From a virus, in IMG/VR virus record IMGVR_UViG_3300045988_079613: a DNA stretch of 64,000 bases, one strand, 5' to 3'. Under the pieces are notes generated by a model. That model did not search any database, was not told the origin of the DNA, and saw nothing but the letters and a program-made list of their open reading frames with translations. Of this stretch, positions 440 through 17,764 are shown in pieces. Each line of letters opens with the position of its first letter. Position 1 is the first letter of the stretch. The position numbers and the translations under genes are program-made.

Positions 440-2956
440 TTATTTTCCTCTCGCAGCTTCTGCATTAGTTTTATTCTTCAACGCTGTTTTGGCTTTCAAC
501 TTCTCACGTTCCATTGCAGCATCGTCTTTCATCCTCTATAATTCTTTTTGAGATTCTAGTTTTTGTTTTTCTAGAGCTACTTTCTTCTCCTCTATCTCTC
601 TCTTCAACTATTGTTCTCTTACTTTATTGTTGAATTCGAATTGTTTAGAAGCTTCATCAGATGCTTGTTTTCTTTCTGCTAATGCCTGAGCTGCAATTTC
701 CATAGTATCTGGTATTCCATTTCCATTCTGGTCCATGTTCTCCGCACCTCTATAAGCGTTCAATTGAGCTACAGTAATCTTAGTTGCGTTGTTAGAATCA
801 ATTTCATATTTCTTGAGATCCATTTCAGCTTCTTTAAGCATAAGTTCTTCTTCTTTAACCTCATTCTGCATCTGCAACATCTATTGTTCACGTTCGGCTT
901 GTGCTTGTTCCATAGCTTGTTGTTGTTCCATTCTCTTCTGTTCAATTTCTTCAAGCTTATTTTTAATCATTGTTACATTATCCATAGTAATGATTTCAGT
1001 GATATCTAATAAGCTAGCTCCATTTTGCATAGCTGGTTGCATGAGGTTCTTAAGTGCGTCTATTTGTTGTTGATTTTTAGTAGTATCTTCAACAAATACG
1101 TCATAATCCTCATAGAAGAAGTTATCTGATAATGTTATAAAGGCTCTAGTAGCATCATCTAGTATGTACTATAGATTCGTTTTATTGTCTTTCCAAGCCC
1201 ATTTAGAAGTGTTTAAAAGCATGCTAATAGCCTCTCTTTTTACTTGATTATGAGTCCAAAACCACGGTTCAGTAATATGAGCAGACTATACTACAGATCT
1301 TTCTACATTGCCTACCAATTCATTAGAGGATATACTACCTTCCCTTTGCTTACTTACTCCAGATATTTCAGATAACATAGATTCTATCTTATCCATCAAC
1401 ATAATGTACTAATTAATAGTATTAGCCATAGTAAGATCCAATGCTGTAATCTGATTAAATTGAGCAGGCTTGCCTCCTTCTCTACCAGGTATATCCCAAC
1501 CTTCTTCATACGGATTAATAAAATTAACCCCTAGAGCTGACAAGTAATGCATCCATTTAGATACATCTATATTCATAGACTTAGGTATCTGAGTAATATC
1601 CATATTCACCACTTTACCTTTATCTCTAGCCATTGCTAACTCTAGGCGATACCATAGTACAATATACATATACTGTAATGGTTTCATCATGCTTACCAAA
1701 GATCTAGGTTTACTATTAGTATTATTATATATTACTCCAGTATATGGTAATCTCTAAGCATTAGGATTATCGGCCGATATAAACTAATATTCTATAGGAC
1801 CCATACCGAAATATAGATCTTCTCCAGCTCTATATCCTTCGTATGTCTCTATAATCCATCTCCATTCTACATTTAACTCCATACCGGTAACATTGTAAGT
1901 CTCATCTACTACATATTCTACAGGCTCTCCAGTTTCCGGATCAGTAATGGTAACGAAACCTATTTTCTTAAAACCTTGCCAACACGTATGCCATACGCTT
2001 ATGTTACTCCCGTCCTCAAAAGGATTAGTACTAAATCCATTAATAGTGTGGGTTTTAATATGGGGGTAATCTAATGAAGTTTTACGCACCTCAGGATTAA
2101 CTCCTCCTTTTGCTGAGTCACTCATTAGATCTAGAAGCTCGTTTAATTGTTTTTCAGACAATTTATCATAATATCTATCGTATATGTCAGTAACAGATAG
2201 TTTCATTTCATAAACACACCACTGTGCATCATGAATAAATTCTAGATCTGATGTTTCAGTATCATAATCAAAATACAGAGGATTGATTCGTTCTAAACAA
2301 GGTTCCCCATTTAATATACCCACATAATAGATTTCTTCTCCTCCTATTAAGGCATCTTTCCAACCTTTGAAGAACTCATGAGTAATATTTAACTTATTCT
2401 TTAAATAATTTAGACTATGATATGCAGTTATTTCGGCAATATCCTTATAGTCTTTACTCATATACTTTTGTATCTATTCTGGAGGCATAATCTCTCCAGA
2501 CTCTAAAGCTTGTTGATATCTAGCTTGTTCTTCCGGCCCTAATTTACTCATAATAGTAGCCTGAATATAGTCTATCAACATTTGTTTAGCTTTATCTTGC
2601 ATTTCACTAGTAGCTATTTCACTAGTACGAACTACTCTGAAATTAAATGGTCTTTTAGTCTCTTCTCCAAGTAACAGGTCTATCTTAGGTTTGATTATAT
2701 TATAATCCTAAGCCATAGCTGGAAACCCGTCCTATTGTTTAAATGGATTTGTAACATACTTTAAATCTTTTTCATTGTATATACTATTATACAAATCATA
2801 GTATGTCTACATCTCTTCTTTACGAGTTCTATTGTTACCATTTCTAGAACCACCTTGACTTTTACCAATTATATAGTCTACGCAACTTTTCTTCCAGTCT
2901 TCTGTCTTTTTAGACATAGGTAGTTTCTATAGTGGAAATTGATTAATATTTTTCAT
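440..2956 (-). CDS. portal protein (838 codons), TAG-recoded
   Basis: One frame is continuous through track ORFs 608-880, 1409-1699 and 1784-2461. Only TAG interrupts it, and it ends in a double TAA at 437-442. The ATG lies 2 nt after the terL stop; an alternative ATG is at 2917. Size and position fit a portal. Confidence 0.7.
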
Positions 2957-2958
2957 AG

Positions 2959-5900
2959 TTAAAACATATATGCTTTTATATTATCAATAGTATCGTCGTC
3001 ACGATACCATTCTTGAGTAAAAATAGGACCTTCGAATAGTACCCTATTTTTATTCTCTTTTTTCTTCTCTTTGACCTTTACATTATAGAGCTACTCTCTA
3101 TAAATCATCACCTGCATCAACGCCATGACTCTATCAAAGTTTCCTGTATCATTATAGCTTATAAGCTCTTCTAATAGCGGCTCTGACAATATGTTATGCA
3201 AGTTCTTTTTACCAGGAGCCTATTCTTCATTTAACCAGTCCTTAATCAAGCCTTCTCCCCATTGCTTGATCTATTTATTCATGTGACAACCTTTTTTTCT
3301 TTGTACTTTGGAATTACCAACGACATCGGAAATAATATCGGGTTGGTCAGCCAGCAAATAGTCGCAATGCTTAGCAGTAAAATAAGGGAACAAGCCTTTG
3401 CGCTCATTTTCGTACATGATTCTGCCATTATAGTATACGGCTAATTTGCGTAAATTTTCATAATACTCTTCAGCTGTAGATGGGCGGCCAGTATACTCAG
3501 CAACAATAATATCATAATAGTTTTCGAAGTCTTGAAAACGTTTATAAACAAATGTAGATCCCAACGAGTTAGTACCAGATTGATCATGATCATAAGGGTC
3601 AACGCCTAGTATGTATAAACCTATAGGAGCATCTTTAACTGGATGTTCCCATATAACTATACTTCCTGTTGGATTATCATCCTTTTTTAACGGATAATGA
3701 GTTATATCACCAATTTTTTTAATCACCCACTTTAGTGTACCATCCTTTTCCCATATCAGATCTCCAATCTATTTATGATTACTTAAGTGTTTATTAGTAC
3801 GTATAGTAGCTAACTATTCCTATAACTCTTTCTTAGGGAATATGTTACCACCAAACTCCAAACATGCTTCCTAGGGCGTTATACAGTTATGTACCCAAAC
3901 ACCATTAGCAGATAGGGCGTGTGTGATGGTATTAATATCCCACACTTTATCAGTTTTTATATATTCAATTGATACTATTTTACCATATGAGTAATCACGC
4001 ATTGACTTAGAAGGTTTGGTATCTTTGATGTACTCATTCTTTCTATAACTTATAAATCCGATCTATTCTCTAAACTTAGGTATATCTATCTTTCGTATGT
4101 TTAACTTGTTTTCTATATACGTGTATCCATTTCCATTTATAGAGTTTCTAGATTTAACAGAAGCGTGAATGTCAAAACCTCTCAATAAGAACTACATATC
4201 TAACAATACCTATTTTTCTTTGCTAAAGAAACCTACATGATTACCATCCTTAGAAGAATATCCGTCAGAATCAAATAGGCCAGATAAAAATGCAGAAACT
4301 ACAGATTTCGGTGATTTTAATATATATTCAGGAATATATACTCTTCTCATTAGATTACCATTAGAATTAGAACGTAACAACTGTAAAGCCTTAAAGATTT
4401 CTATAGATCCTTTTCTAGATACTCGTAACTCTATTCCTCCTTTTAATTTTCCAATTTCAGTTTTATTACAACCTCCAAAATTAAGATTGAAAAAAGCCTC
4501 TGCCCATTTTATAGAGTCTATATCCTATTTATCGAATACTAAGCCTATTGCTCCGCTTGGACCATAAAAGAACCCATCTCCCATAAATAATCCTAAAAAT
4601 CTACCCCAGTCTTCATCTATCAATATAGAAGTATTAGTTGCAGGAATCAATCCAGGAACAGAAACGTGTTGATATACTTCAGAGAATTCGGTATTATAAT
4701 ATTTAATTGGATCTCCTACTTTGTAATCTTTTAATTCTCTATACTATTTACCATCAAATATTTTATGATTGTCTGTAAGTAACAGTTCCGTTCCATCTTC
4801 TGTAGTTAATCTGTATACATCCTTTACACCCGATATCCACGCTTTAGGATTATCCTTTATTCTTGTTACTCCATCTTCTGTACTAATCCAAGTATCACCG
4901 TCTAAACAGTGTTCTGCAACGTATCTATCTACTGCTACAGAGTTAGTAGCATTTTCTATTACTTTTCTACGCTCAGCTAATATATATTCTACGGACTTTC
5001 TACGTAACGTATTTCCATCATTATCCATGTATATTCTATTACCTTCATCATCACGGAAGTCCATGTTTGTATACTGAGGTATAAAGAACCCACACTTCTT
5101 GTCCGATGGTGTTTCATCCCATATGTTATCAAATCCCATACAGTTGTAACCATCAGGATTATAGAACATATCTTTAAGAGTCTCAAAATGGCTATCTTCG
5201 TCACCACCTGTACCAAATGCAATCATTGTTCCGAACGCCATACCATCTTGTTCTACAGATGGTCTAGCAATCTGCCATGCGGCGCCTAGTTCTGAGAATG
5301 AACCAGCTTCTTCAAAGATAATTAACTTGCCAGCTTTACCACGAACTACGTCAGGGTTATCTTTTAGAGTAACACCAATTATTTCTGACTTGAAACCTAA
5401 TTCTATCTCATTACCATATTCGTCTTTAGTAAAGAATCCAGCACGTTTACGCATCTAAGTATTAACAGACCTCTTTTTACCCCAGGCCGTATTCTTATCT
5501 ATAAAGTCCATATAGTCCCATGCTTTAGTAAGAATACCGTCTTCTGTTAAATACTACTTATTACTAGCATATATATATGTTTTACTACCTGGGAATAAGT
5601 AGTAGTTACGACACGCCATAGAAGCGTTCTTATATGAGTAACCCTTACGTCTACTCTTCAATGCACATAAATGTTTACCTTCTCCTTCAGCATCTTCTAC
5701 TGCTTGAAAGAAGTAATAGTCGTAATCATAGAAGTCTGGGAACTATAGATCACGTGTCTTTTTTATCTTAGTAGATCCATCTGGATTGTTTATAGTAGTA
5801 TAGATAATTCTTTGAATAGGACAGAAGTTTAAATAAAAATAGTTATACCCACTGATGAAATCACCATCATCAGCTGTATAACCATATTTACATCTATCCA

Positions 5901-6033
5901 TCTATTCGTCCCAGTATTTAAAGTACTCTGATGTACCTTCTGGGTACTAACAATAAGAGCCGACTTCGAGAAATCTCAGAGCCGGCTGTCTAAACTTATC
6001 GCTGTTTTTTATCTACTTATTGAAGTCTACCAT
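2959..6033 (-). CDS. terL: terminase large subunit, intein-containing, TAG-recoded (1024 codons; about 683 after splicing)
   Basis: ATG at 6031-6033 follows an in-frame TAA at 6046-6048; the stop is TAA at 2959-2961. Only TAG interrupts the frame. Terminase-like ATPase and nuclease segments flank the intein (GKLIIFEEAG, GTGGDEDSHF, LGVDPYDHD). Confidence 0.85.
3886..4908 (-). mobile_element. intein (341 codons) with LAGLIDADG homing-endonuclease domain inside terL
   Basis: Begins with Cys in CLDGDTWI (codon 4906-4908) and has LTDNHK (TxxH block). Two LAGLIDADG motifs are present (LGLFMGDGFF, LSGLFDSDGY). Ends VWVHN (Asn 3886-3888), followed by Cys at 3883-3885. Confidence 0.8.
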
Positions 6034-6574
6034 CTTGTGAATTACTTAACCTGTATCTTTTAGGGTATCTTTTATATAGAGTATCTTCTTTATATATAAT
6101 ATAATGCATAGTTCCTTTACTGGATATATTATATTTATTCATTAACTGAGTATATGTAAAACCAGATTCTCTATCTTTTCTTATATTTTCTACTATATCT
6201 GCAGAGTATTTTCTACGTATTTGACCGCAATTAATAGATATCAGTTCTTTTGGAATGTCGTGTTTATTGTCTTTAATAGTTCCTATTCCTATATTGTCGT
6301 AAGAATTATCATATCTATCTCCATTCAAGTGTCTTACTACTATTCCATCTTCATAAATTTTATCACCAAACTTTTGATATGCTTGTAACCTGTGAATCAT
6401 ACAATGTACCTTCTTATTTTCTCTTCTAGGTCCTATTCTTATATCGAAGTTGTAGTAATCTCTCTTACGATCTTTTATCCTACCTTTTACTTGTACTCCA
6501 TTTCTGTTTAAAAGAATTCCATCTTTTGTAACAGTGTAACCCTTAATAAGGGCTAATTCTTCTGGTTTTATCAT
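6017..6574 (-). CDS. HNH homing endonuclease (185 aa), standard code
   Basis: HNH core VHCMIHRL...RHLNGDRYDNSYDN...DNKHD plus a C-terminal HTH-like segment. No in-frame TAG. Its last 17 nt overlap the terL start. Confidence 0.85.
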   Translation of the reverse strand: MIKPEELALIKGYTVTKDGILLNRNGVQVKGRIKDRKRDYYNFDIRIGPRRENKKVHCMIHRLQAYQKFGDKIYEDGIVVRHLNGDRYDNSYDNIGIGTIKDNKHDIPKELISINCGQIRRKYSADIVENIRKDRESGFTYTQLMNKYNISSKGTMHYIIYKEDTLYKRYPKRYRLSNSQDGRLQ

Positions 6575-6591
6575 AATAAAATAAAATTAAT

Positions 6592-6670
6592 TGGTCCTCC
6601 CGTCCGGTTCTGCTCCAGATCCTCAACTTTTAGAGAGTTGTGTGCTAAGCATCTCATACACTACAGGAGA
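6592..6670 (-). tRNA. amber-suppressor tRNA, anticodon CUA (likely Gln-derived), CCA encoded
   Basis: Cloverleaf of 76 nt plus CCA. Acceptor TCTCCTG/CGGGAGG (two G-U pairs); D stem GTGT/GCAC. Anticodon arm CAACT-CTCTAAA-AGTTG with the anticodon at 6631-6633. T stem TCTGG/CCGGA; discriminator A followed by CCA at 6592-6594. Confidence 0.75.
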
Positions 6671-6678
6671 ATATTAAG

Positions 6679-6781
6679 CGGGAGAGGAAAGATTCGAACT
6701 TTCAAACCCAAGAGTTTTGTTAACGACGACTTTAGGGCGCTTCCGTCAATCTACTGCCGTATACCATTCCGCCACTCTCCC
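6679..6781 (-). tRNA. atypical 103-nt tRNA-like gene (Leu/Ser-like D arm), anticodon arm not foldable
   Basis: Acceptor GGGAGAG/CTCTCCC is perfect and the T arm is GAAAG-TTCGAAT-CTTTC. The D region reads GGCGGAATGGTATACGGC. The 53 nt between the D and T arms contain no 5-bp/7-nt/5-bp hairpin. Confidence 0.45.
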
Positions 6782-6826
6782 GTGCCAGGGAATATTTAAT
6801 GTCTGTCCCTGTCAGACTTTTAAATA

Positions 6827-6967
6827 TCAAAACCAAGAGAACAGTCTCTTATACCAAGGTTTTCTTTGACCAAGTTTATGTAAAACTGCATATGCTTCTT
6901 CCATCTGCTGCCATACTTCTTCTTGGGTTTTATTCATATCAATTACAATATTTACTTGCTTTTTCAT
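6827..6967 (-). CDS. possible small protein (46 aa)
   Basis: ATG at 6965-6967 and TGA at 6827-6829. Below the track cutoff. Lies between the last middle gene and the tRNAs. Confidence 0.3.
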   Translation of the reverse strand: MKKQVNIVIDMNKTQEEVWQQMEEAYAVLHKLGQRKPWYKRLFSWF

Positions 6968-7026
6968 CTTATTCAAAATTATATTATTATAAACGTATTG
7001 TTTAATTTTGGTTGTCTTTAACTGTA

Positions 7027-7560
7027 TTATCCTGCCAACTCATAAGGATTAACCTTGGCATCTCCCTTTACTTTACCCATAGTTAATTCCTCAGCTTGAA
7101 CCATAGACTTTAATGCTTCTATACTCTTAATAGTATTAGCTGTAGAACCCATTCCAGCTAGTAGATCTTTGATCTTCTTCTCATCCAAACAATCATCTAA
7201 TGACTCTTCATACCACCTAGTAACTGAGTCTAATTTGTTCATTTGAGCATCTAGCATCTTTAGTATTCTAGTATTTTGCCAATCTATGTACTCCTGTTCA
7301 GCTACCTTTTCTTCTTCAGTAAGTTCATAGCTAGGGTCTTCAAATACTTGCTCTTTGAGTCTTATTTCTCTAGTATGAGCATCCATACTCTTCTTATATG
7401 GGCTACTCCATTTATGCATAAGTACTATATAAGTAATAACAAGCTCTTGATGAACTTTGTCTTCCGAAGTATCATGTTCATACAGTCTTTTGAATGCTGG
7501 TACAAAGTATAGATCAGGATGAATTACTACTTTACCGCCTACTATATCAACAAGATTCAT
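7027..7560 (-). CDS. hypothetical protein (177 aa)
   Basis: Track ORF with a TAA stop, tightly packed. It is the last gene before the tRNA and terminase region, so a small-terminase role is only a positional guess. Confidence 0.65.
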   Translation of the reverse strand: MNLVDIVGGKVVIHPDLYFVPAFKRLYEHDTSEDKVHQELVITYIVLMHKWSSPYKKSMDAHTREIRLKEQVFEDPSYELTEEEKVAEQEYIDWQNTRILKMLDAQMNKLDSVTRWYEESLDDCLDEKKIKDLLAGMGSTANTIKSIEALKSMVQAEELTMGKVKGDAKVNPYELAG

Positions 7561-7849
7561 TTCTTTGTTTACTTAATTTATATTGATACCACTCACCTAA
7601 ATCATGAATAGCCGCAGGATCTGATATTACCACTACTTTTACTTCATCCTTGTCATTATAATATCTGACACATGTTAGAATAAACTCTCCTGCTTTAACA
7701 TCAATCACTTCATTAGTAGTAATAACTTGACCATCTGAATCTGCTCTGTATATATTACAGTCTACATTAGTAAGTTTTGGAGTAATAGCATTATTATCCG
7801 TATTAAAACTTATTGCTTCTCCATAATTATTCACTAGTATCTTTTCCAT
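7547..7849 (-). CDS. hypothetical protein (100 aa)
   Basis: Track ORF with a TGA stop. Overlaps both neighbours by a few nt. Confidence 0.65.
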   Translation of the reverse strand: MEKILVNNYGEAISFNTDNNAITPKLTNVDCNIYRADSDGQVITTNEVIDVKAGEFILTCVRYYNDKDEVKVVVISDPAAIHDLGEWYQYKLSKQRNESC

Positions 7850-8226
7850 TATGCTGCTCCTACAGGTTCACAATCGCAACAACCTTTATCGTTCATTGCT
7901 ACTTTTCTTTCTTTTCTATCAGCTTCCAGTATCTCAATTCTTCTACGATAATAGTCCTTCAATTCTGGATTATCTAACACTATATACTCCTTATCATAGT
8001 AGTTACCGGTAGTACTATACATTCTAAGTATAATGTCATACTGTTTTAATTCAATAGATTTTTTATTACTATCTTTATCAATTATTTCCAATATACCGTT
8101 TTCTGGCATAATATAAATATAATCAATATCATTGAATCTACCAATAGCTTCGAATTCTTCTTTCTCGAAATCTACTTTATAGATGTTAGAGTTATCTACT
8201 CTTGCATAAAACTTTACCATAATCAA
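7849..8226 (-). CDS. hypothetical protein (125 aa)
   Basis: Track ORF with a TAA stop. Confidence 0.65.
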   Translation of the reverse strand: MIMVKFYARVDNSNIYKVDFEKEEFEAIGRFNDIDYIYIMPENGILEIIDKDSNKKSIELKQYDIILRMYSTTGNYYDKEYIVLDNPELKDYYRRRIEILEADRKERKVAMNDKGCCDCEPVGAA

Positions 8227-8253
8227 TCAATTCTATAACCTAAATATTTCTCT

Positions 8254-8658
8254 TTATTTAATCTCTGTATTATCGCTAACGCTCTCCTCAGTGATACATT
8301 CGGATTTGTGTAGTTTTTCAGGGTCTGATACTTCTGCACTATCTGTTGAAAGTTCTGTAATTCCTGTTCCAAGCTCTCTGGCGTTATATTTTTCTTCATA
8401 TCTCTCAGTTAAACGCTTACACATTAGATCTATTTGTTCTACTCTATCTACAGTATCAATTTCTCCTTTACCTTCTTGTACCATTAAGGTAGTAAGTTCA
8501 TCAATAGTATCATTAGTAAAGTCTTCATAAGTAATAATACCATTTTCGATAACTTTATCCACGGCTTTATATAAAGCCTTCATACCTTTAGTAAAGTTAA
8601 CTTGGTCAACATTACTCTTCTCGATGTTCCACATCGCCTTACTCTCTTCTATTGTCAT
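8254..8658 (-). CDS. hypothetical acidic protein (134 aa)
   Basis: Track ORF with a TAA stop. Confidence 0.65.
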   Translation of the reverse strand: MTIEESKAMWNIEKSNVDQVNFTKGMKALYKAVDKVIENGIITYEDFTNDTIDELTTLMVQEGKGEIDTVDRVEQIDLMCKRLTERYEEKYNARELGTGITELSTDSAEVSDPEKLHKSECITEESVSDNTEIK

Positions 8659-9073
8659 TTTGTTTTGCTTTAATTATACTCTTACTAACACAACCAGCTA
8701 TCCATCCTACTAAGTAAGCATAACCTTCATTACCATCCTTGAAATCTTCTGTATACATTCCTAGTTCTTGATATATATAGTCTGCAGCATGTACTGCCTC
8801 ATGTGATATATCAGACTGTTGCATCTCATCTAAATCAGGTACTTGAATTAATACACCATACTTGCCATCTTCCTTGTTTATTACAGAACGAGTTACCATT
8901 GCATAGTTACTACCGCGGAAGTCTACTTTAGCCTCCTCATCAGTAAATTCAACTTTACCATCTGTACTTAATAACTTGAAATGCTCCTGTAAGTCTTCAA
9001 CTTCTACCGCTACGTATAGTCTTCTAGGGTATATCTGAGGATCATACATGTCTATTTTTGGCGTCTTCTTCAT
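8639..9073 (-). CDS. putative zinc metallopeptidase-like protein (HExxH)
   Basis: Track ORF containing the HEAVH motif. Confidence 0.5.
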   Translation of the reverse strand: MKKTPKIDMYDPQIYPRRLYVAVEVEDLQEHFKLLSTDGKVEFTDEEAKVDFRGSNYAMVTRSVINKEDGKYGVLIQVPDLDEMQQSDISHEAVHAADYIYQELGMYTEDFKDGNEGYAYLVGWIAGCVSKSIIKAKQNDNRRE

Positions 9074-9219
9074 ATCTCTTCTTTATCTTGATCTTCCCTA
9101 AGTAAGCAAACATTACCGGTTTAGGATCTAAATCTGTTATGATCTGATTAGTAAATTTAAACGGGCTATTACATATCACTTCAATAACTTGATATGGAAT
9201 GTTATACTTGTTACTTAAT

Positions 9220-9606
9220 TTAGTATATATACTCGTCTAATTTCTCATTCCATTCTACTTTCTTATAATATTTACATGTAGCTAATGTAATAGGTCCTAA
9301 TAACGTGTTAGGTCTTACTATATTTATTAGTGATGCTATATCTACCCAATCGCTACTATATAAAGTGTCCTTAGCAAGGACGCTTATCTTAGATTGTTCT
9401 TGTTTATTATACTTACGTATAGGTTCATATATTTCTATATCTTTCATATCATCCGAGGTAAGCAACTCTGTTCGATTAGGTACTATAGTAAACATGTTAA
9501 ATGGTAGCTGTTTACCTCTAATCTTATTCCACAGTTTCTTGATATACGGATACTTCTTCCATGCTATTATTGTTCCTGCCTCAAGCAGGAATGATCTCAT
9601 TTTCAT
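9220..9606 (-). CDS. hypothetical protein (128 aa)
   Basis: Track ORF with a TAA stop. Confidence 0.65.
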   Translation of the reverse strand: MKMRSFLLEAGTIIAWKKYPYIKKLWNKIRGKQLPFNMFTIVPNRTELLTSDDMKDIEIYEPIRKYNKQEQSKISVLAKDTLYSSDWVDIASLINIVRPNTLLGPITLATCKYYKKVEWNEKLDEYIY

Positions 9607-9718
9607 CTTTATTTAATCTTAATATAATTGTAATTTGTACTCTATCACCGATTATCTCAGGTATTAATACTTTATTTACTTTTACCTCGTCTTCTATTTC
9701 ACCTTTTACTAGTATACC

Positions 9719-9973
9719 CTAACTCTTGAATTTAGCTATGTATCTACTCAAATTATCTGGAGTAATACCTAGAGTACGCTTAATGTACTTCCTATTTTCA
9801 GCACTTATTACATTCTTACTAATATTAGGGAGTTTAGGAGTATTAATGTCTAAGTCTATAAACGTAGCTAATAATTCTAACTCCCTATTAGTAAGGTCTA
9901 ATATACCATTAAGGCTTTTTAAGAATTCTTTATACAAATCGGTTTTAGATACTTTCTTAACCAATTTATTCAT
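9719..9973 (-). CDS. hypothetical protein (84 aa), TAG-terminated, possible read-through to 9581
   Basis: Track ORF and the only gene of this block that ends in TAG (9719-9721). The frame stays open for 45 more codons to TGA at 9581-9583. Confidence 0.6.
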   Translation of the reverse strand: MNKLVKKVSKTDLYKEFLKSLNGILDLTNRELELLATFIDLDINTPKLPNISKNVISAENRKYIKRTLGITPDNLSRYIAKFKS

Positions 9974-10385
9974 TCGTCAATTCCTCTTTAATCTTATTTA
10001 ATACCTTAGTAAGGTTAAAATAAACTGTTTCAGCTTCTACTTTAACACACGGTTGAACTTTACCTTCTTTATACTTCTGTGTTACTTCTTTGTAATCATC
10101 TTCGTATTGTTTAAGTAAAGAATCAATGAATTCAACAGTAGTGTTGATCTTATCATTTTCAGGTTCAGCATTAGCTACCAGCAAACCTTCCAAACGCAGA
10201 TCTTCAACAGTACGTTCATCAATCATTGCGGATCTAAAACTATTACCATCCTCTACATCCATAGTAAAGGCATCAATATCTTCATTCCAAGTAAGTACAT
10301 CATTTGCTTTGAAAAAGCCGAAATCTTTCTTAAATGTATATTCCATATTATTTCTTATTTTTATCACTGAGCCCCCATACGGCAA
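9966..10385 (-). CDS. hypothetical protein (139 aa)
   Basis: Track ORF with a TAA stop. Confidence 0.65.
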   Translation of the reverse strand: MPYGGSVIKIRNNMEYTFKKDFGFFKANDVLTWNEDIDAFTMDVEDGNSFRSAMIDERTVEDLRLEGLLVANAEPENDKINTTVEFIDSLLKQYEDDYKEVTQKYKEGKVQPCVKVEAETVYFNLTKVLNKIKEELTNE

Positions 10386-10479
10386 GCCATATCATGGAAA
10401 AGCAGAGACCCATTACTATTAATTTTTCCATATGCCTATAAAACGTTAATTGTGAATAATTGTTAATAGCTTTTAACAT

Positions 10480-10489
10480 TTGTTAACAA
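10480..10489. promoter_or_regulatory. perfect 10-bp palindrome TTGTTAACAA (copy 1)
   Basis: Intergenic. An identical copy lies at 12579-12588. Confidence 0.35.
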
Positions 10490-10585
10490 TTAATTAATAT
10501 ATAAAAAGAAAGCCCGACCTAAGTCGAGCCTTCTAGTAATGTTGCAAACGAACTAATTTTTATTTTTATGAAAACTTAATTTATA

Positions 10586-10936
10586 TTACTTAACGGCAAT
10601 AATGTCATAAGGTTTCACTAATTGGGTATCTTTTACCAGATCAAAATACATTGCAAATTTCTTATTATAAGCAACTGTATCACCAACCTTAAATTTAACA
10701 TCTGTTAAGTGTGAAGGGATCTGTAGTACAATACCTGTAGCCCAATCAGATTCTACTTCCTTAGTCTCAGTCTTAGTATCATACTCGTTAAATCCATTCT
10801 CATCTACTTTACCATTAGGTACTTGTTCTGTAAACTCTTTAGTAACCATGGTAGGGGGAAGAGGTTTAATTAAAACATCTTTCAACATTCCCCATCCTAT
10901 TCCATTAACTACTGTTTCTAGTACTTTATCTTCCAT
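10586..10936 (-). CDS. hypothetical protein, possibly GroES/Cpn10-like
   Basis: Track ORF. The pattern LIKPL...GIVLQIP...KVGDTVAY...DIIAV resembles co-chaperonins by eye only. Confidence 0.45.
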   Translation of the reverse strand: MEDKVLETVVNGIGWGMLKDVLIKPLPPTMVTKEFTEQVPNGKVDENGFNEYDTKTETKEVESDWATGIVLQIPSHLTDVKFKVGDTVAYNKKFAMYFDLVKDTQLVKPYDIIAVK

Positions 10937-10968
10937 ATTCTTTTTACTTAGTTTCTAACTATAACGTA

Positions 10969-11253
10969 TTATTTCTTGTTTGGTTCTGCTTCTACTATAA
11001 TATTTCCTCCATTTGAGGTACAATATGTTACAGCTCTCTGTGGGCATTGTTTGCCCATAAAGCAACAACCATCACAAGTGCCTAGAGGAGAACTCTCTAT
11101 ATGGTATCTTTTACCTTGAATTTCTACTACTTCTCTATTCTTGATTATATCTGCTAATTCTGGATCGTATAGTGTCATACCTAATTGCGTATTAATGTTA
11201 AATAAGTAATTTCTAGCTTCTTCTACTTGTTTTCTAGTTACTTTTGTATTCAT
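10969..11253 (-). CDS. Cys-rich hypothetical protein (94 aa)
   Basis: Track ORF containing CDGCCFMGKQCP...C. Confidence 0.6.
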   Translation of the reverse strand: MNTKVTRKQVEEARNYLFNINTQLGMTLYDPELADIIKNREVVEIQGKRYHIESSPLGTCDGCCFMGKQCPQRAVTYCTSNGGNIIVEAEPNKK

Positions 11254-11558
11254 TCTGTTGTTTTACCTTTTCCGTGTTTGTCTAACCAAAGTAAAGCTAT
11301 GGCATTCCATGCTACTTGTGCTAGATGTTGACAACCGGTATCTTCATCTATTTTAGTACCTTTTTCATATTCTACCAGGTGTCTAAGTAAAGCAGCTTTG
11401 TAACGTTGGTAACCATTATCTAAATTCTGCCAACTATTATCAGAGTATTTCTTAGCACCTTCAGTATATACTTTAACAATATCTTCTATCTCTTCTAACG
11501 GTAGTAGATCCCATCTTAACTTACCGTCCTTAAAGTCATTCTTTAATCCTTCTGTCAT
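11250..11558 (-). CDS. dATP/dGTP diphosphohydrolase-like (DUF5664-type) protein
   Basis: GKLRWDLLP...GAKKYSDNSWQN...ALLRHL...DEDTGCQHLAQVAWNA matches my memory of that family. Confidence 0.55.
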   Translation of the reverse strand: MTEGLKNDFKDGKLRWDLLPLEEIEDIVKVYTEGAKKYSDNSWQNLDNGYQRYKAALLRHLVEYEKGTKIDEDTGCQHLAQVAWNAIALLWLDKHGKGKTTE

Positions 11559-11947
11559 AGTATGTATTATCTAAAGTAAGGTATTATATCTGTTAAAACA
11601 AGTATTATATTACTACTTACTTAAGAGTATACTATACTTAGTCTATCTGCATATCCCCCTTACCCCCATAATAACGCTCTTATACTAGGTTTGGTTCCCT
11701 TTTCTTTAACATTTATTAACAATATTTAGGGCTATTTAACTACAGAAATTTAACACTATTTAACAAAAAAATATATAAATTTTTTTACCCCAAAAAAATT
11801 TTGGAGGGGTTGTGCGTGTGATTACCAGCAAAGGATTACTCCCCTGTATTTAGTATCGGTAGGGAACACCCCTAGTCGGCTAATCTGACTAACGGTCTTT
11901 TCCTACACTTATAAATTCAAAATTCAAACCTTTTAAATTTAAACGTT
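11559..11947. promoter_or_regulatory. divergent intergenic control region
   Basis: A 389-nt gap between outward-facing gene blocks. It has three TATTTAAC-like repeats (11741-11775) and the hairpin CCAAAA-AAA-TTTTGG. A G+C-rich structured stretch at 11806-11905 includes TAGGG-aacac-CCCTA. Confidence 0.45.
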
Positions 11948-12520
11948 ATGTTGTGTTATTTACAAACTAAGATGCGCAAATCGCGCGAAGGTAAACCGGA
12001 TTTTTTCGTGTGTACATGGCTAGGTATTCAAGGCGATAAAGATGCTAAGAAAACGTTAAAAGACCCAAAAACGGGTAGATTAAAAATTAATATTGCAGCC
12101 GCAAAGGCTCGTAATATTACACTTACCAAGTGTATCTTTCCTATCGATGATGACGATGTAAAAGAATGGGATGACGTGCTAGAACCTATGACGGAATTAA
12201 TATTGGATTCTGAAACGGGCGAAATAACAGAGAAGCAACGAAACAAAAAATTAGATGATTGTTTGAGCCTTGATTTGTGCTACAAACAAATTCCGTTAAA
12301 AGATATTAACGATGAAGTTAAGCGCATACAGTTTTACTCGAATTCGGGTAAACTGATAAAACAAAATTTCATTACTGTTATTGGTCTAGCTGATGAAAAT
12401 GGAGATTGGGCGGAGGATTTAACAGCTGAAGAAACGGCGTTAAATAATCTTAATAATAACCTATCTTCAGGCGTCTACATTGACATCACGAACGAAGAAG
12501 AGGAAACAGGTAAGGAATAA
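11948..12520 (+). CDS. hypothetical protein with acidic C-terminus (190 aa)
   Basis: Track ORF and the first gene of the plus-strand block. Confidence 0.6.
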   Translation: MLCYLQTKMRKSREGKPDFFVCTWLGIQGDKDAKKTLKDPKTGRLKINIAAAKARNITLTKCIFPIDDDDVKEWDDVLEPMTELILDSETGEITEKQRNKKLDDCLSLDLCYKQIPLKDINDEVKRIQFYSNSGKLIKQNFITVIGLADENGDWAEDLTAEETALNNLNNNLSSGVYIDITNEEEETGKE

Positions 12521-12543
12521 ATATATAGCCTTAACAGTTTTTA

Positions 12544-12565
12544 AGGGTTGGCACACGTCAACCCT
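12544..12565 (+). terminator. hairpin AGGGTTG-8nt-CAACCCT
   Basis: A 7-bp perfect stem 24 nt after the stop. The T-run is displaced. Confidence 0.4.
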
Positions 12566-12578
12566 ATCTTCATCGTTT

Positions 12579-12588
12579 TTGTTAACAA
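12579..12588. promoter_or_regulatory. perfect 10-bp palindrome TTGTTAACAA (copy 2)
   Basis: Identical to 10480-10489. Extended by AACAATTGTT. Confidence 0.35.
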
Positions 12589-12842
12589 TTGTTTTACCGA
12601 TATAGCAAATTTAGGTTTGAATATTTATTCTATTTTTGAATAATTTAGATTGTAAGTCCATTCTACGTTGTAATGGATTATTGGCGCATTCATAGTAATA
12701 TAAGACACCAATTCTAAGTCAAAGTGGTTCTGACTGTTAAATCAGAAGAATATGACGACTGCAATCTATATTATAAAAAGTCCTGAGTAGGACTATAAAA
12801 GGCTCACCATAAACATATGTTTAACTTAAAAAACCAATTAAA

Positions 12843-13004
12843 ATGGACAGATTGACATTTAATGGTCTATTACTTGCATTCTTTGTGATTTGCGATGTAA
12901 TAACTTGGTCATTTGTTAGTAACGGTAAAGATCCTTTACCAATACTAATAAGTATCCAGTTATTATCATTGCTAATCGCTAATGCATGTAAAGAGGCCGA
13001 TTAG
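12843..13004 (+). CDS. possible small membrane protein (53 aa)
   Basis: ATG at 12843 and TAG at 13002-13004, then TGA 3 codons later. Two hydrophobic segments. Followed by a terminator. Confidence 0.35.
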   Translation: MDRLTFNGLLLAFFVICDVITWSFVSNGKDPLPILISIQLLSLLIANACKEAD

Positions 13005-13028
13005 TTCGTTGTGTGAGGTTGGTTTTAT

Positions 13029-13055
13029 GGGCAGTCTTTATGGCTGCCCTTTTTT
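13029..13055 (+). terminator. Rho-independent terminator
   Basis: GGGCAG-9nt-CTGCCC followed by TTTTTT. Confidence 0.65.
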
Positions 13056-13347
13056 AAATCCCTTATTATGGTATTAAATTAGAACACTAGCCGTTTGTGA
13101 AAATCAATGTAAGTGCTAGCGTGGTTAGGTAACATAGACCACCGAAGTGAAAAGCTGTTACACATTAAAAAACTCAATAACTTCCCAAGTCATTGAGGGC
13201 ACCAGTTTCTTACTACAAGAGAAATACAATTCTGACATGGTAGGAACCAGAGAATTGTATAGTGATTTGCATAACATGCAAGTAGGTAAAAGTCCTACAA
13301 GTAAGTTTTAGGTGTAAAATGCAATTAACCCATTAATACATAATCAC

Positions 13348-13509
13348 ATGAAAAAGAGACTAGTATTATGTTCAAAACATAGAAGATTTGGACATAAAAC
13401 ATTTTACTTATGTGCTACAGAAAAAGAAGCATTAGAAGTAGCAGAACATTGTAAAAGAGACTATATTAATGTAGAAATAGTTTCAGTTCCTGACACTTTA
13501 CAAATGTAA
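13348..13509 (+). CDS. possible small protein (53 aa)
   Basis: ATG at 13348 and TAA at 13507-13509. Below the track cutoff. Confidence 0.35.
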   Translation: MKKRLVLCSKHRRFGHKTFYLCATEKEALEVAEHCKRDYINVEIVSVPDTLQM

Positions 13510-13875
13510 CAATAAGTATTATTTAAAGTAAGAGAAAATGAGATCTTTATCCGGATAGCTCTTAGCATAGCTTATAATAACTTTTCAAACGAGATATCTA
13601 ATATATCTTCATATACCTAGTTATTATATTAATGCGCTTACTTTATTTTTTATTTGATTACTAATTAAAAACTATATAAGGATGTCACGTATCCTAACTA
13701 CTACATGTAAAATCCGTGTCTAATAAGGTATTGTAGTAGTATTCTCTATCAATAAATACAACCTCATCGTGGTGATAGAGTCTAGTAACATGTTAAAAAA
13801 CAAACCTTCCTAGTTTGCATGTGAAGCTAATGTATTTAAATTATTTAAGAGTATTAATCAATAATCAAAGTATAT

Positions 13876-15199: not shown

Positions 15200-15690
15200 G
15201 AAGTATATGCATAGTAGTATTTAACAACAATTTATTATGATTAATGGTTAAATGTGAATTTATAGCTAACCGGTTCGTGAGAATAGGTTAGTCTTCAGAA
15301 GATGACAAGCCTGTGGGGCGTAAGTAAGTGCATATCTATACTGTACTAAATACGATAAGATAAGTATAGAAATACTCGTATTTGTGCTTATAATCGTGCG
15401 GACGTAAAAATCAGGTGAGTGATAAGATTAGGTTTGACAGCCTTTTCTGCTTGTACTCTGGAGTAATCCTAAAACATGTGAGAGTCATAGAATAAAACTC
15501 TAACAAGTAATGTTAAAATTTGATTTTCTTTATTAACACAAAGCGTTAAGTGCATTTGAAATCATTTTAGTATTAGTTAAAGTTATGGTATTATAACTTA
15601 AATCTCATTCATTAACAAATGTGTTTCTTACTCTAGAATACCCTAGAGTAACGTCGTCAATTTTATTAACTAACAATTTAAAGCCTATGT
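15200..15690 (+). ncRNA. ORF-free structured island (about 0.5 kb), candidate ncRNA or structured leader
   Basis: No ORF is present and G+C is higher than in the flanks. A pseudoknot-compatible helix pair lies at 15335-15383 and an 8-bp hairpin at 15629-15650. Confidence 0.35.
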
Positions 15691-15693
15691 AAA

Positions 15694-15939
15694 ATGAATA
15701 AGAACAAGAGGTATGTCACTTCTGTAACACAGCACAGTGACCAATTTCTGGCGATCCTATTAGGATTAAAAAGTATACTAGGGATGCCTATAAGCATAGC
15801 TAAACCTATAGCTAGAAGCAAACCAGGTATAACAGTGGAGTTAAACCCACACTTCGAAATTAACTCAGAATTATCTACTGATGAAATTAAAAATCAGTTA
15901 GATGAATATGAGATAGAAATAACAATAATTAATCAATAA
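15694..15939 (+). CDS. hypothetical protein (81 aa)
   Basis: Track ORF. Confidence 0.6.
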   Translation: MNKNKRYVTSVTQHSDQFLAILLGLKSILGMPISIAKPIARSKPGITVELNPHFEINSELSTDEIKNQLDEYEIEITIINQ

Positions 15940-15941
15940 TT

Positions 15942-16427
15942 ATGAAAGCAGTATTAATTTTAATCAATGGTAATTACCGAAGTAATAAACATGAAGAAGA
16001 TTTGATCAAAGATATCATATCTACTGTGTGTACTAATACAGATGCTGAAGGAGCAAATGCTCTTAATGTAAAGACATACGATGAAGCTGATTTACTTAAG
16101 TTAATGATGCCTAATCCAGATGATAACGCATTTAAAGACGTAGATACATTTAAAAACAAATTGATATCCTTCTGTGATAAGATACATGAAATGATTGGAG
16201 ATCCAATATTGTTTCATACTGATGAAGCCTTTAAACTTGAGTTTATCAAGTATTTCGTAAATGACAGTACATTTAGAACTGATCATAAAGAAGTCATAAC
16301 TTACTTAGCAAAAAGAGTAGGAGTAAAAACTAACAAATCAGTTGTAATAAATGTTCTAAAAGATTTTCATCTAGAGAATATAGGTAAGTACATAAAAGAA
16401 ATCAACGACGTAGTAGAACTTGTTTAA
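15942..16427 (+). CDS. hypothetical protein (161 aa)
   Basis: Track ORF. Confidence 0.65.
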   Translation: MKAVLILINGNYRSNKHEEDLIKDIISTVCTNTDAEGANALNVKTYDEADLLKLMMPNPDDNAFKDVDTFKNKLISFCDKIHEMIGDPILFHTDEAFKLEFIKYFVNDSTFRTDHKEVITYLAKRVGVKTNKSVVINVLKDFHLENIGKYIKEINDVVELV

Positions 16428-16428
16428 T

Positions 16429-16527
16429 ATGGGAAAAGATAAGGAGAAAGAAGTAAAAACTAAGACGGAATACAAAAAACGTCCTAAGCATAAGAAAATG
16501 GAACCTTATAATCGTAAAAAGGCATGA
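16429..16527 (+). CDS. possible basic peptide (32 aa)
   Basis: The ATG lies 1 nt after the previous stop, and its stop forms an ATGA overlap with the next gene. Confidence 0.3.
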   Translation: MGKDKEKEVKTKTEYKKRPKHKKMEPYNRKKA

Positions 16528-16931
16528 TTAAATTAAGTAAAGAAAAACCTTATGAAGACGCATGTAAAATACTAGGTCTTCATCCTGTAGCTAATTATAA
16601 AAGCTACAAATTAACAGATGAAACTAGGAACTTCATCAAGTTAGAAACCATTGCAAAAGCTTTAAATGAAGGCTGGAAACCTACAACAATGGATCCAAAA
16701 GAGGTAAGATATTGTGTATGGGGTTGGAACTATACAGATGACAGAAAACCTTCCAGTTTGCTCTATTTGACTTCTTGCAATACGCTTGGCGCTGCTTTTG
16801 CCGCTGTCGGTTCTTCCTTAGAATTCAAAGACAAGGATACAGCAAAAGAATTTGCAAGAATATGTAAACCTATGATTGTCAAACACTTATTTGGTCGAGA
16901 TGATCATGAAAACTTCAGATTCGATTTCTAA
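16524..16931 (+). CDS. hypothetical protein (135 aa)
   Basis: Track ORF. Confidence 0.65.
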   Translation: MIKLSKEKPYEDACKILGLHPVANYKSYKLTDETRNFIKLETIAKALNEGWKPTTMDPKEVRYCVWGWNYTDDRKPSSLLYLTSCNTLGAAFAAVGSSLEFKDKDTAKEFARICKPMIVKHLFGRDDHENFRFDF

Positions 16932-17058
16932 CGAATGCCCTACACAAGATAATATTATCAACTGTAGTGAATGTGATCTTGAGTGTAAACTCAGAATGGC
17001 AACGAATAACAAGCAAGAGGTTCCGCCAGAGCCTCTGCCCGCTGTTATATATTACTAA
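16876..17058 (+). CDS. hypothetical Cys-containing protein (start uncertain)
   Basis: Track ORF overlapping the previous gene. Alternative ATGs at 16900 and 16906. Confidence 0.45.
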   Translation: MSNTYLVEMIMKTSDSISNECPTQDNIINCSECDLECKLRMATNNKQEVPPEPLPAVIYY

Positions 17059-17280
17059 TTAAATTGTTAGTATGGTGGATTCCAATCAACCCAAAAGAAC
17101 TGTAAATATACCAGAACCCTAATGGAAGTTCATAAGAACTAGAGTACAACGGCTATACAACGGCAATCCTATACAGGATAGAAGAAGGATAGGGGTTATC
17201 TACAAAATAAGGTATACAAATATGTAGAACAGTTCTTTTTTTAAATTTAAACTTAGTGTTAATTAATAATAGTATCAATC

Positions 17281-17301
17281 TTTAAACATTATCAAAAAAT
17301 G
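17281..17301 (+). promoter_or_regulatory. conserved leader TTTAAACATTATCAAAAAATG (copy 2)
   Basis: Near-identical to the copies at 14546 and 21086. Confidence 0.5.
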
Positions 17302-17763: not shown

Positions 17764-17764
17764 T

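What the first reader, a model, noticed from the sequence alone, without database searches (positions are those of the whole stretch)
6679..6781. 103-nt tRNA-like gene with no foldable anticodon arm; CUA sits in a 15-nt loop
The acceptor stem (GGGAGAG/CTCTCCC), the T arm (GAAAG-TTCGAAT-CTTTC) and a Leu/Ser-type D region are all good. I tested every 5/7/5 window in the 53 nt between the D and T arms, and none pairs. The best helix is TGACG/CGTCG (6744-6748 with 6724-6728). It encloses a 15-nt loop, GAAGCGCCCTAAAGT, with CTA at 6733-6735. The gene lies 8 nt upstream of the suppressor tRNA. It could be a second, unusual suppressor, an intron-containing tRNA, or a non-decoding tRNA mimic.
Basis: seen in the sequence. 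Interest (0 to 1): 0.65.

Follow-up and report, generated by a model that had tools for sequence, protein, structure and literature searches.

The report
Phage tRNA-shaped RNA with a pseudoknot
The 103-nt gene is real, but it is not a second stop-codon suppressor: it belongs to an apparently undescribed family of tRNA-shaped RNAs in phages of Bacteroidota, in which a conserved pseudoknot takes the place of the anticodon and variable arms.

Summary
The gene lies on the minus strand (6781->6679) of a crAss-like phage (Buchavirus) that reads TAG as a sense codon in its late genes. The "15-nt loop with CUA" is not a free loop. Eight of its bases (6737-6730) pair with 6714-6707, and the C of "CUA" is one half of a covarying pair (C-G 34, U-A 9, A-U 5). 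I collected 54 distinct versions from gut, marine, freshwater and soil phage contigs. Their acceptor and T stems differ completely but stay paired, the inner core is almost invariant, and the discriminator base is free. The "CUA" triplet reads UUA, AUA, CUG, ACG or CCA elsewhere. Members also occur in phages that use the standard code, and sometimes beside a normal tRNA-Leu(UAA). No deletion restores a consistent tRNA. Best reading: a non-decoding, tRNA-scaffolded structured RNA. Its partner and function are unknown. It matches no Rfam family except, weakly, tRNA.

The parts
6679..6781 (-). Whole tRNA-shaped RNA gene (position 1 = 6781, position 103 = 6679, the discriminator G). No CCA is encoded.
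   Evidence: Rfam tRNA 35.0 bits. The family covariance model R1 scores it 118.2 bits, against 45.7 bits or less for ordinary tRNAs.
6775..6781 (-). Acceptor stem, 5' strand (positions 1-7, GGGAGAG).
   Evidence: All 7 pairs have changes on both sides across the family, and 99.5% of cells are paired.
6680..6686 (-). Acceptor stem, 3' strand (positions 96-102, CUCUCCC). The discriminator at 6679 varies freely (A, G, U or C) in the family.
6756..6772 (-). D arm (positions 10-26), tRNA-Leu type, with A14, A15, G18 and G19. Pair 12-24 is a purine-purine mismatch in every member (G.G here).
   Evidence: Invariant columns; pair counts.
6749..6755 (-). 5' connector AGUAGAU (positions 27-33), almost invariant.
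   Evidence: A scan that left positions 27-43 free found only three single-base variants.
6744..6748 (-). Pseudoknot stem S1, 5' strand (positions 34-38, UGACG).
   Evidence: Pair 37-55 changes from C-G to U-A in L010/L071 and in L147. Pair 34-58 is U.G in 32 sequences and U-A in 20.
6738..6743 (-). Loop L1, GAAGCG (positions 39-44), conserved. It mirrors positions 52-49 in antiparallel sense, so it may form a major-groove triplex (inference).
6730..6737 (-). Pseudoknot stem S2, 5' strand (positions 45-52, CCCUAAAG).
   Evidence: Pair 47-73: C-G 34, U-A 9, A-U 5. Pair 46-74 changes from C-G to U-A. Pair 48-72 is U.U, C-G or U-A.
6724..6728 (-). Pseudoknot stem S1, 3' strand (positions 54-58, CGUCG). 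The single base U53 (6729) links S2 to S1.
6715..6723 (-). Loop L3, UUAACAAAA (positions 59-67). It is A-rich and variable, and carries an extra hairpin in L146, L147, L151 and L177.
6707..6714 (-). Pseudoknot stem S2, 3' strand (positions 68-75, CUCUUGGG).
6704..6706 (-). Connector UUU (positions 76-78). U77 and U78 are invariant. U78 is placed like U48, the Levitt partner of A15.
   Evidence: invariant columns. The pairing role is an inference.
6687..6703 (-). T arm (positions 79-95), GAAAG-UUCGAAU-CUUUC.
   Evidence: 4 of 5 pairs have changes on both sides, and 100% of cells are paired.
6671..6678 (-). 8-nt spacer CUUAAUAU, invariant in all gut crAss-like copies.
6592..6670 (-). Neighbouring amber suppressor tRNA(CUA) with an encoded CCA and an aberrant T loop. 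It is context, not part of the RNA.
   Evidence: ARAGORN finds it only at -ps90.

Best explanation
The gene encodes a stable non-coding RNA that keeps the 'top half' and elbow of a tRNA: a 7-bp acceptor stem, the T arm, the D arm, U8, A14, A15, G18, G19 and a U48 equivalent. The anticodon arm and variable arm are replaced by one compact H-type pseudoknot. S1 is 34-38/54-58. S2 is 45-52/68-75. L1 is conserved and purine-rich, and L3 is A-rich. Shown here: the fold, its conservation, and its spread through phages whose relatives and source genomes point to Bacteroidota hosts. Inferred: the RNA is transcribed with its neighbours. RNase P and RNase Z cut it out, and the CCA-adding enzyme probably extends it, because those enzymes read only the acceptor/T half and the elbow. 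The tRNA part therefore acts as a natural maturation and stability scaffold. The invariant pseudoknot is the working part. It most likely binds a host or phage factor, for example as a decoy for a tRNA-binding enzyme or defence nuclease. It does not read codons and probably needs no particular amino acid. In the crAss-like clade it has become fixed directly upstream of the amber suppressor tRNA, at the head of the TAG-recoded packaging genes.
For: The window is a Buchavirus-like crAss phage. TAG is a sense codon in its late genes. The RNA is found in 139 loci as 54 distinct sequences. Acceptor and T stems are fully compensated. Overall, 89% of cells are paired against 73% in shuffles, and the covariation score is 0.478 against 0.164, with 0 of 500 shuffles as high. 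Slid controls score 0.15 or less. S2 pairs 47-73, 46-74 and 48-72 covary, and so does S1 pair 37-55. The core at positions 27-43 stays almost invariant even when the search does not require it. The discriminator is A, G, U or C, even between near-identical copies such as L124 and L128. That argues against a fixed aminoacylation identity. L3 tolerates inserted hairpins, like a peripheral element of a structured RNA. Members lie in tRNA arrays (L121), next to a canonical tRNA-Leu(UAA) (L154), and in standard-code phages. The family scores 95-125 bits with model R1, and the next hit scores 45.7. The only Rfam match in the region above noise is tRNA.
Against: There are no expression, end-mapping, charging or binding data. 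Function is inferred only from anatomy. Most family members were found with patterns that fixed parts of the core, so the measured invariance is partly circular. Only relaxes this, and it still fixed the D arm, AAGUC.UC and the T loop. The inner half of S2 (UAAAG/CUCUU) does not vary, so its pairing is not proven. Thermodynamic folding does not favour the pseudoknot stems over alternatives. An A73 discriminator with a Leu-type D arm in many environmental members leaves leucylation possible.
Confidence: 0.55

Rival explanations
1. It is a conditional decoding tRNA of the Leu/Ser class, and an extra amber suppressor in this phage. The pseudoknot masks the anticodon loop and is opened by a factor or a modification.
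For: The scaffold is a type II, Leu-like tRNA, and many members have A73. The 7-mer in S2a resembles an anticodon loop: CUUAAAG in marine members, CUCUGAA in gut clade 2, CCCUAAA here. The gene sits among tRNA genes.
Against: No 5-bp stem can flank that 7-mer in any member. The presumed position 33 or 34 covaries with position 73 as a Watson-Crick pair. The triplet differs between close relatives (CUA, CUG, CCA). A canonical tRNA-Leu(UAA) lies next to a member in L154. The RNA is present in standard-code phages. The discriminator is not conserved.
Confidence: 0.1
2. It is an intron-containing tRNA gene, like the 'enigmatic' short introns reported in Lak megaphage tRNAs. The extra 19-36 nt are excised.
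For: ARAGORN with introns calls tRNA-Val(GAC) with a 16-nt intron. Rfam aligns it as a tRNA with a 32-nt insert. There is a precedent in Lak phages (bioRxiv 10.1101/356790).
Against: A deletion scan of every segment of 8-74 nt in 8 divergent members gives no shared isotype. The only recurrent call, Val(GAC), becomes Ile(GAU) where the S1 pair 37-55 has changed. The anticodon stem in that model is 2-3 pairs. The insert is too short for a group I intron and has no bulge-helix-bulge motif. The 'intron' bases covary with the variable region.
Confidence: 0.05
3. It is mainly an RNA-processing or punctuation element. Its tRNA shape recruits RNase P and RNase Z to cut the polycistronic transcript, releasing the downstream suppressor tRNA or stabilising late mRNAs.
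For: In every gut crAss-like copy it lies 8 nt upstream of a suppressor tRNA, although that tRNA has several different sequence types (six by my reading of the sequences listed). It also lies just before the packaging genes: HNH and TerL here, the portal gene in L117.
Against: Punctuation needs only the acceptor/T half. It does not explain an almost invariant pseudoknot core kept across gut, marine and soil phages in unrelated contexts.
Confidence: 0.12
4. The pseudoknot is a small-molecule aptamer or a self-cleaving ribozyme carried in a tRNA scaffold.
For: It has invariant unpaired nucleotides, H-type topology with an A-rich L3, and optional peripheral hairpins. The same genome carries a Hatchet ribozyme and RAGATH RNAs.
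Against: No riboswitch or ribozyme family of Rfam matches, even at E<=10 on a 501-nt search. No expression platform or cleavage-site signature is evident.
Confidence: 0.15
5. It is a decaying tRNA pseudogene.
For: Standard tRNA finders reject it.
Against: It is far better conserved than its flanks: 3 differences in 103 nt against cr60_1, while the neighbouring ORF and the suppressor tRNA differ widely. Covariation is extensive.
Confidence: 0.01

Closest known systems
Bacterial type II tRNA-Leu
   Same: 7/5 acceptor/T geometry; a D arm of the form GGCGGAAUUGGUAnACG; U8, A14, A15, G18, G19; a U-U-C-R-A T loop; a long region before the T arm; A73 in many members.
   Different: No anticodon stem-loop. 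The 52 nt between the D and T arms form a pseudoknot. The discriminator is not conserved. Pair 12-24 in the D stem is always a purine-purine mismatch.
Engineered 'tRNA scaffold' RNAs, in which the anticodon arm is replaced by a cargo RNA for stable expression (recalled from memory, not checked here)
   Same: The tRNA top half is kept for processing and stability, and a foreign structured module takes the place of the anticodon arm.
   Different: This one is natural, and the module also uses up the variable arm.
Lak megaphage tRNAs with 'enigmatic introns' (bioRxiv 10.1101/356790)
   Same: Over-long phage tRNA genes that bacterial tRNA finders reject.
   Different: Those are described as inserts in otherwise canonical tRNAs with an assignable anticodon. 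Here no deletion restores a tRNA, and the insert covaries with the variable region.
tRNA-like structures of plant RNA viruses, and tmRNA
   Same: Viral or bacterial RNAs that mimic the acceptor/T half of a tRNA and contain pseudoknots.
   Different: In the plant-virus structures the pseudoknot builds the acceptor arm at a genome 3' end. tmRNA lacks a D stem and carries an ORF. Here the acceptor stem is ordinary, the pseudoknot sits where the anticodon should be, and the gene stands alone in a DNA phage.
H-type pseudoknot aptamers (preQ1-I, SAM-II; recalled from memory)
   Same: The order S1a-L1-S2a-L2-S1b-L3-S2b, a 1-nt L2 and an A-rich L3. As I recall it, the window's L3 (UUAACAAAAC) equals that of the T. 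tengcongensis preQ1-I aptamer.
   Different: No Rfam hit to any of them. The conserved nucleotides differ. It is embedded in a tRNA frame with no expression platform.

Membership tests
Canonical decoding tRNA | 7-bp acceptor stem and a 5-bp T stem with a T-Psi-C-type loop | tested here: met
   Full covariation in both stems. The T loop is UUCGAAU.
Canonical decoding tRNA | 5-bp anticodon stem closing a 7-nt loop with U33 and a purine at position 37 | tested here: not met
   ARAGORN default finds nothing. The Rfam alignment leaves 32 nt unaligned and marks 2 of 5 stem pairs as non-standard.
Canonical decoding tRNA | Anticodon and identity elements (discriminator) conserved among orthologues | tested here: not met
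   The candidate triplets vary, and the discriminator is A, G, U or C.
Canonical decoding tRNA | Score above the Rfam RF00005 gathering threshold | tested here: inconclusive
   35.0 bits against 29 with relaxed filters, but not reported in the whole-window run at gathering settings.
Amber suppressor tRNA | CUA at positions 34-36 of a 7-nt anticodon loop | tested here: not met
   CUA lies inside stem S2, and its C pairs with G73.
Amber suppressor tRNA | CUA kept in relatives and linked to TAG recoding | tested here: not met
   The triplet is CUG, CCA, UUA, AUA or ACG in relatives, and members occur in standard-code phages.
Intron-containing tRNA (group I or bulge-helix-bulge type) | Removing one segment gives a canonical tRNA with the same anticodon in all orthologues | tested here: not met
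   Exhaustive deletion scan with ARAGORN on 8 members.
Intron-containing tRNA (group I or bulge-helix-bulge type) | A group I core (more than about 200 nt), or 3-nt bulges around a 4-bp helix | tested here: not met
   Only 19-36 extra nt. The sequence shows a single-base bulge (U33 or U53), not a bulge-helix-bulge motif.
Intron-containing tRNA (group I or bulge-helix-bulge type) | A spliced mature RNA | not testable with these tools
   Needs RNA-seq or a Northern blot.
Known riboswitch and ribozyme pseudoknots (preQ1, SAM-II, pistol, twister and others) | Match to the family covariance model | tested here: not met
   cmscan of 6450-6950 at E<=10 gives only tRNA plus chance snoRNA and lncRNA hits.
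tmRNA | tRNA-like domain plus a tag-peptide ORF | tested here: not met
   ARAGORN finds the phage's tmRNA elsewhere, at 18182-18587, and none here.
New family proposed here (tRNA-scaffolded pseudoknot RNA of Bacteroidota phages) | tRNA top half, plus the core AGUAGAUUGAYGGAAGCR, plus S1 and S2 with 47-73 covariation | tested here: met
   The window scores 118.2 bits with model R1. There is a clear gap to ordinary tRNAs, which score 45.7 bits or less.

The most novel reading that the evidence does not exclude
The RNA is a 'self-decoding' tRNA mimic. Positions 28-44 have exactly the length of an anticodon arm (17 nt). The central 7-mer UUGAYGG has the U33 and purine-37 signature. Its five middle bases pair with a built-in 'codon' strand (C-R-U-C-R, 54-58), and the two strands change together (GAC/GUC to GAU/AUC). 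The molecule would then carry its own codon-anticodon helix. Like the PKI pseudoknot of the dicistrovirus intergenic IRES, or like tmRNA-SmpB, it could enter a ribosomal site independently of the mRNA and so manipulate translation in infected Bacteroidota.
Probability: 0.06. Interest if true: 0.95.

Novelty: new variant of a known kind. Interest (0 to 1): 0.68.

Why it matters
If correct, this is a natural counterpart of the engineered tRNA scaffold. It would be a widespread, phage-specific RNA that borrows tRNA maturation signals to deliver a conserved pseudoknot of unknown target. It occurs in some of the most abundant viruses of the human gut and in marine and soil phages, yet every standard annotation tool misses it; the copy in the RefSeq genome of cr60_1 is unannotated. 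The almost invariant core offers a direct handle for finding its partner in Bacteroidota, whether a tRNA-binding enzyme, a defence nuclease, the ribosome or a ligand. The result also warns against reading anticodons in unusual phage tRNA-like genes from a single sequence when inferring stop-codon recoding.

Tried and rejected
- ARAGORN default, relaxed and intron modes: only a weak Val(GAC)+intron model.
- Single-sequence folding: z = -0.34, and the minimum-energy fold uses a register (33-39/56-62) that the substitutions G58A and C37U+G55A contradict.
- RNAalifold on the gut clades proposed a variable arm 65-69/74-78 with a CUUG loop. I rejected it once broader sequences showed that position 73 covaries with 47.
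- My interim model of an extended anticodon stem 28-32/59-63: dropped, because U59C breaks it and nothing covaries.
- Antisense target of the loop within the window: only a chance-level match.
- Deletion scan for an intron: no consistent result.
- Conserved protein neighbour: none. The neighbours are a portal protein, an HNH endonuclease, a radical-SAM protein, a phosphoesterase and unknowns.
- Thermodynamic comparison of S1, S2 and the alternative structures: not discriminating.
- Literature searches by topic and by core sequence found no description. No supplementary text is held for the paper on candidate structured RNAs of viruses.
- GenBank phages: only cr60_1 carries the RNA.
- A shared 8-mer with 16S rRNA (UUGACGG region) is, by my own recall and estimate, at chance level.

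Full report
**Numbering.** Position 1 is window base 6781 and position 103 is base 6679. The window coordinate of position p is 6782 - p. The gene is on the minus strand.

**1. The observation**

The minus strand of 6781-6679 reads GGGAGAGUGGCGGAAUGGUAUACGGCAGUAGAUUGACGGAAGCGCCCUAAAGUCGUCGUUAACAAAACUCUUGGGUUUGAAAGUUCGAAUCUUUCCUCUCCCG.

- ARAGORN with default settings finds no tRNA anywhere in the window.
- Rfam at gathering settings reports only a Hatchet ribozyme, RAGATH-9 and RAGATH-20.
- With relaxed filters the Rfam tRNA model hits exactly 6679-6781 at 35.0 bits (gathering score 29). It leaves 32 nt unaligned in the anticodon region and marks two of the five anticodon-stem pairs as non-standard.
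- ARAGORN with introns offers tRNA-Val(GAC) with a 16-nt intron and an anticodon stem of only 2-3 real pairs.

**2. Where the window comes from**

The window is a crAss-like phage of the genus Buchavirus (Suoliviridae), 91% identical to cr113_1 over this region. Reading TAG as a sense codon turns fragmented minus-strand ORFs into long ones: 440-2956, 2959-6033 (TerL) and 38857-63802. The amino acids in ORFs of at least 200 aa rise from 4,912 to 13,742. The neighbouring suppressor tRNA is therefore meaningful.

**3. Close relatives**

- cr60_1 carries an unannotated copy with 3 differences in 103 nt, while the flanking small ORF and the suppressor tRNA differ widely.
- cr113_1, cr56_1, cr109_1, cr53_1, cr6_1 and cr52_1 lack the gene and have only a suppressor tRNA at this spot.
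- Pattern scans of IMG/VR gave two gut clades plus intermediates.
- In every gut crAss-like copy the gene is followed by the spacer CUUAAUAU and a CUA suppressor tRNA, although that suppressor comes in several different sequence types.
- Already in this set the T stem shows three compensated versions: GAAAG/CUUUC, GAGAG/CUCUC and GAAGG/CCUUC.
- The "CUA" is CUG in clade 2 and in L067, and CCA in L034.

**4. The wider family**

A metagenome scan with a core pattern that left the loop free returned the same inner core inside tRNA-like genes with entirely different acceptor and T stems. The contigs came from TARA ocean samples and from freshwater, soil and other sources.

A scan of species-representative genomes found it only on two Bacteroidota MAG contigs (Chitinophagaceae and Bacteroidales) and on a mis-binned crAss contig. 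The portal protein next to one environmental member is closest to those of Cellulophaga and Flavobacterium phages. The evidence therefore points to phages of Bacteroidota, though only for the members that could be placed. Among 50,697 GenBank phage records only cr60_1 has the RNA.

In total I collected 139 loci carrying 54 distinct sequences. A covariance model built from them scores members at 95-125 bits and ordinary tRNAs at 45.7 bits or less.

**5. Structure**

Counts on the model alignment are:

| Element | Result |
|---|---|
| Acceptor stem | 7 of 7 pairs changed on both sides; 99.5% of cells paired |
| T stem | 4 of 5 pairs changed on both sides; 100% paired |
| S1 (34-38/54-58) | 98.9% paired; 37-55 C-G to U-A; 34-58 U.G 32, U-A 20 |
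| Pair 47-73 | C-G 34, U-A 9, A-U 5; the six 'other' cells are an alignment slip in the L154 type, which has one extra pair |
| Pair 46-74 | C-G to U-A |
| Pair 48-72 | U.U, C-G or U-A |
| Whole structure | covariation score 0.478 against 0.164 in shuffles (0 of 500 as high); 0.15 or less when partners are slid |

Positions 45-52 therefore pair with 68-75 (S2). S2 crosses S1, which gives an H-type pseudoknot with these parts:

- L1 is GAAGCR (39-44).
- L2 is the single base U53.
- L3 (59-67) is A-rich and variable. It carries extra hairpins in L146, L147, L151 and L177, and the hairpins of L146 and L151 themselves covary around a GAAA loop.

The inner half of S2 (UAAAG/CUCUU, with U.U and A.C oppositions) hardly varies beyond A/G at position 49, so its pairing is inferred, not shown. 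L1 (GAAG) runs antiparallel to, and mirrors, positions 52-49 (GAAR). This suggests a major-groove purine triplex, again only an inference.

The 5' connector and L1 (positions 27-43) are almost invariant. This holds even in a scan that did not constrain them, where only U29C, A27G and C43U were seen. The tRNA tertiary positions U8, A14, A15 and G18 and the T-loop bases are invariant (G19 is nearly so, being lost in L034 and L135), as are U77 and U78 in the place of positions 47-48.

**6. What this means for the three proposals**

*A suppressor is unlikely.* The C of CUA is simply one member of a covarying pair. The triplet is not conserved. Members occur in phages whose coding density does not rise under TAG or TGA reassignment. 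In L154 a canonical tRNA-Leu(UAA) lies directly beside a member. The discriminator is A, G, U or C, even between near-identical copies. That argues against a conserved aminoacylation identity.

*An intron is unlikely.* Deleting every possible segment in eight divergent members never gives a shared isotype. The only recurrent call, Val(GAC), changes to Ile(GAU) where the S1 pair 37-55 has changed. The "insert" is under structural selection. Short "enigmatic" introns have been reported in Lak phage tRNAs (10.1101/356790), so I keep this at a low probability, not at zero.

*A pseudogene is excluded* by the covariation.

**7. Most likely mechanism**

Shown: a conserved L-shaped tRNA frame with a pseudoknot in place of the anticodon and variable arms.

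Inferred: RNase P, RNase Z and the CCA-adding enzyme need only the acceptor/T half and the elbow (established knowledge). The frame should therefore give precise ends and stability, as in engineered tRNA scaffolds. The invariant pseudoknot would then be the functional module, most plausibly a binding site or decoy for a host or phage factor.

No conserved protein neighbour points to the partner. In crAss-like phages the gene sits at the head of the recoded packaging module, next to the suppressor tRNA. In L117 it sits just before the portal gene, and in L121 and L154 it lies inside tRNA arrays.

Alternatives kept open are a processing or punctuation role, an aptamer or ribozyme, and a masked decoder.

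**8. Comparison with known families, and novelty**

Nothing in Rfam 15 other than tRNA matches above noise. Seven literature searches, including one with the core sequence, found no description. The closest known things are:

- type II tRNA-Leu, for the frame;
- engineered tRNA scaffolds, for the logic;
- Lak phage over-long tRNAs;
- viral tRNA-like structures and tmRNA, for tRNA mimicry with pseudoknots elsewhere in the molecule;
- H-type pseudoknot aptamers, for topology.

I file it as a new variant of a known kind, a tRNA-like non-coding RNA. It is probably an undescribed family.

**9. Caveats**

- Most members were found with patterns that fix parts of the core.
- There are no RNA-level data.
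- Host assignment rests on a few contigs.
- Recalled similarities (the preQ1-I L3, tRNA scaffolds, the IRES PKI pseudoknot) are leads from memory, not tests.

Noticed in passing
window 6592-6670 (-): The amber suppressor tRNA(CUA) is itself aberrant. Its T loop is AGCAGAA (no UUC), its D loop is 12 nt without GG, and its CCA is encoded. ARAGORN default misses it, and so does Rfam tRNA at E<=10. A U.G to U-A change in its T stem in L006 and L024 supports the fold.
   Followed up: partly
window 440-6033 and 38857-63802 (-): TAG is a sense codon in the minus-strand late genes (portal, TerL with an intein, and very large ORFs up to 4487 aa). The plus-strand genes at 21-38 kb are unaffected.
   Followed up: partly
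window 15291-18587 (+): A cluster of non-coding RNAs: Hatchet ribozyme (15291-15416), RAGATH-9 (17082-17239), RAGATH-20 (17890-17987) and a phage-encoded tmRNA (18182-18587, tag GNTSYVMDYTRLAA).
   Followed up: no
L117 3272-3369 (-); L114 609-706 (-): A second, different 98-nt tRNA-like gene with a non-canonical centre lies immediately upstream of the family member in two environmental phage contigs.
   Followed up: no
L088 2276-2373 (-); L092 4218-4337; L094 3459-3575; L128 5889-6011; L099 101-204: Other over-long phage tRNA genes (97-123 nt) with apparent inserts in the anticodon region. L088 looks like tRNA-Lys(UUU) with a 26-nt insert, and L094 has a good 5-bp stem enclosing about 40 nt. 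These may be cases of the 'enigmatic' phage tRNA introns.
   Followed up: no
L001 2094-2184 (cr113_1): The suppressor tRNA(CUA) annotated as tRNA-Gln in cr113_1 is 91 nt long with a long variable arm (type II shape). That is unexpected for a Gln acceptor.
   Followed up: no
window 6801-6817: A hairpin (GUCUGACAGGGACAGAC on the minus strand) lies between the small upstream ORF and the tRNA-like gene. It is also conserved in relatives that lack the gene.
   Followed up: no
window 6017-6574 (-): The ORF between the suppressor tRNA and TerL is an HNH endonuclease (Pfam HNH_3, E 3.8e-08). Relatives have other homing endonucleases or nothing at this spot.
   Followed up: partly
L139 1198-1272 (-): A 75-nt class I tRNA with a UAA (Leu) anticodon but no long variable arm lies next to a family member.
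   Followed up: no
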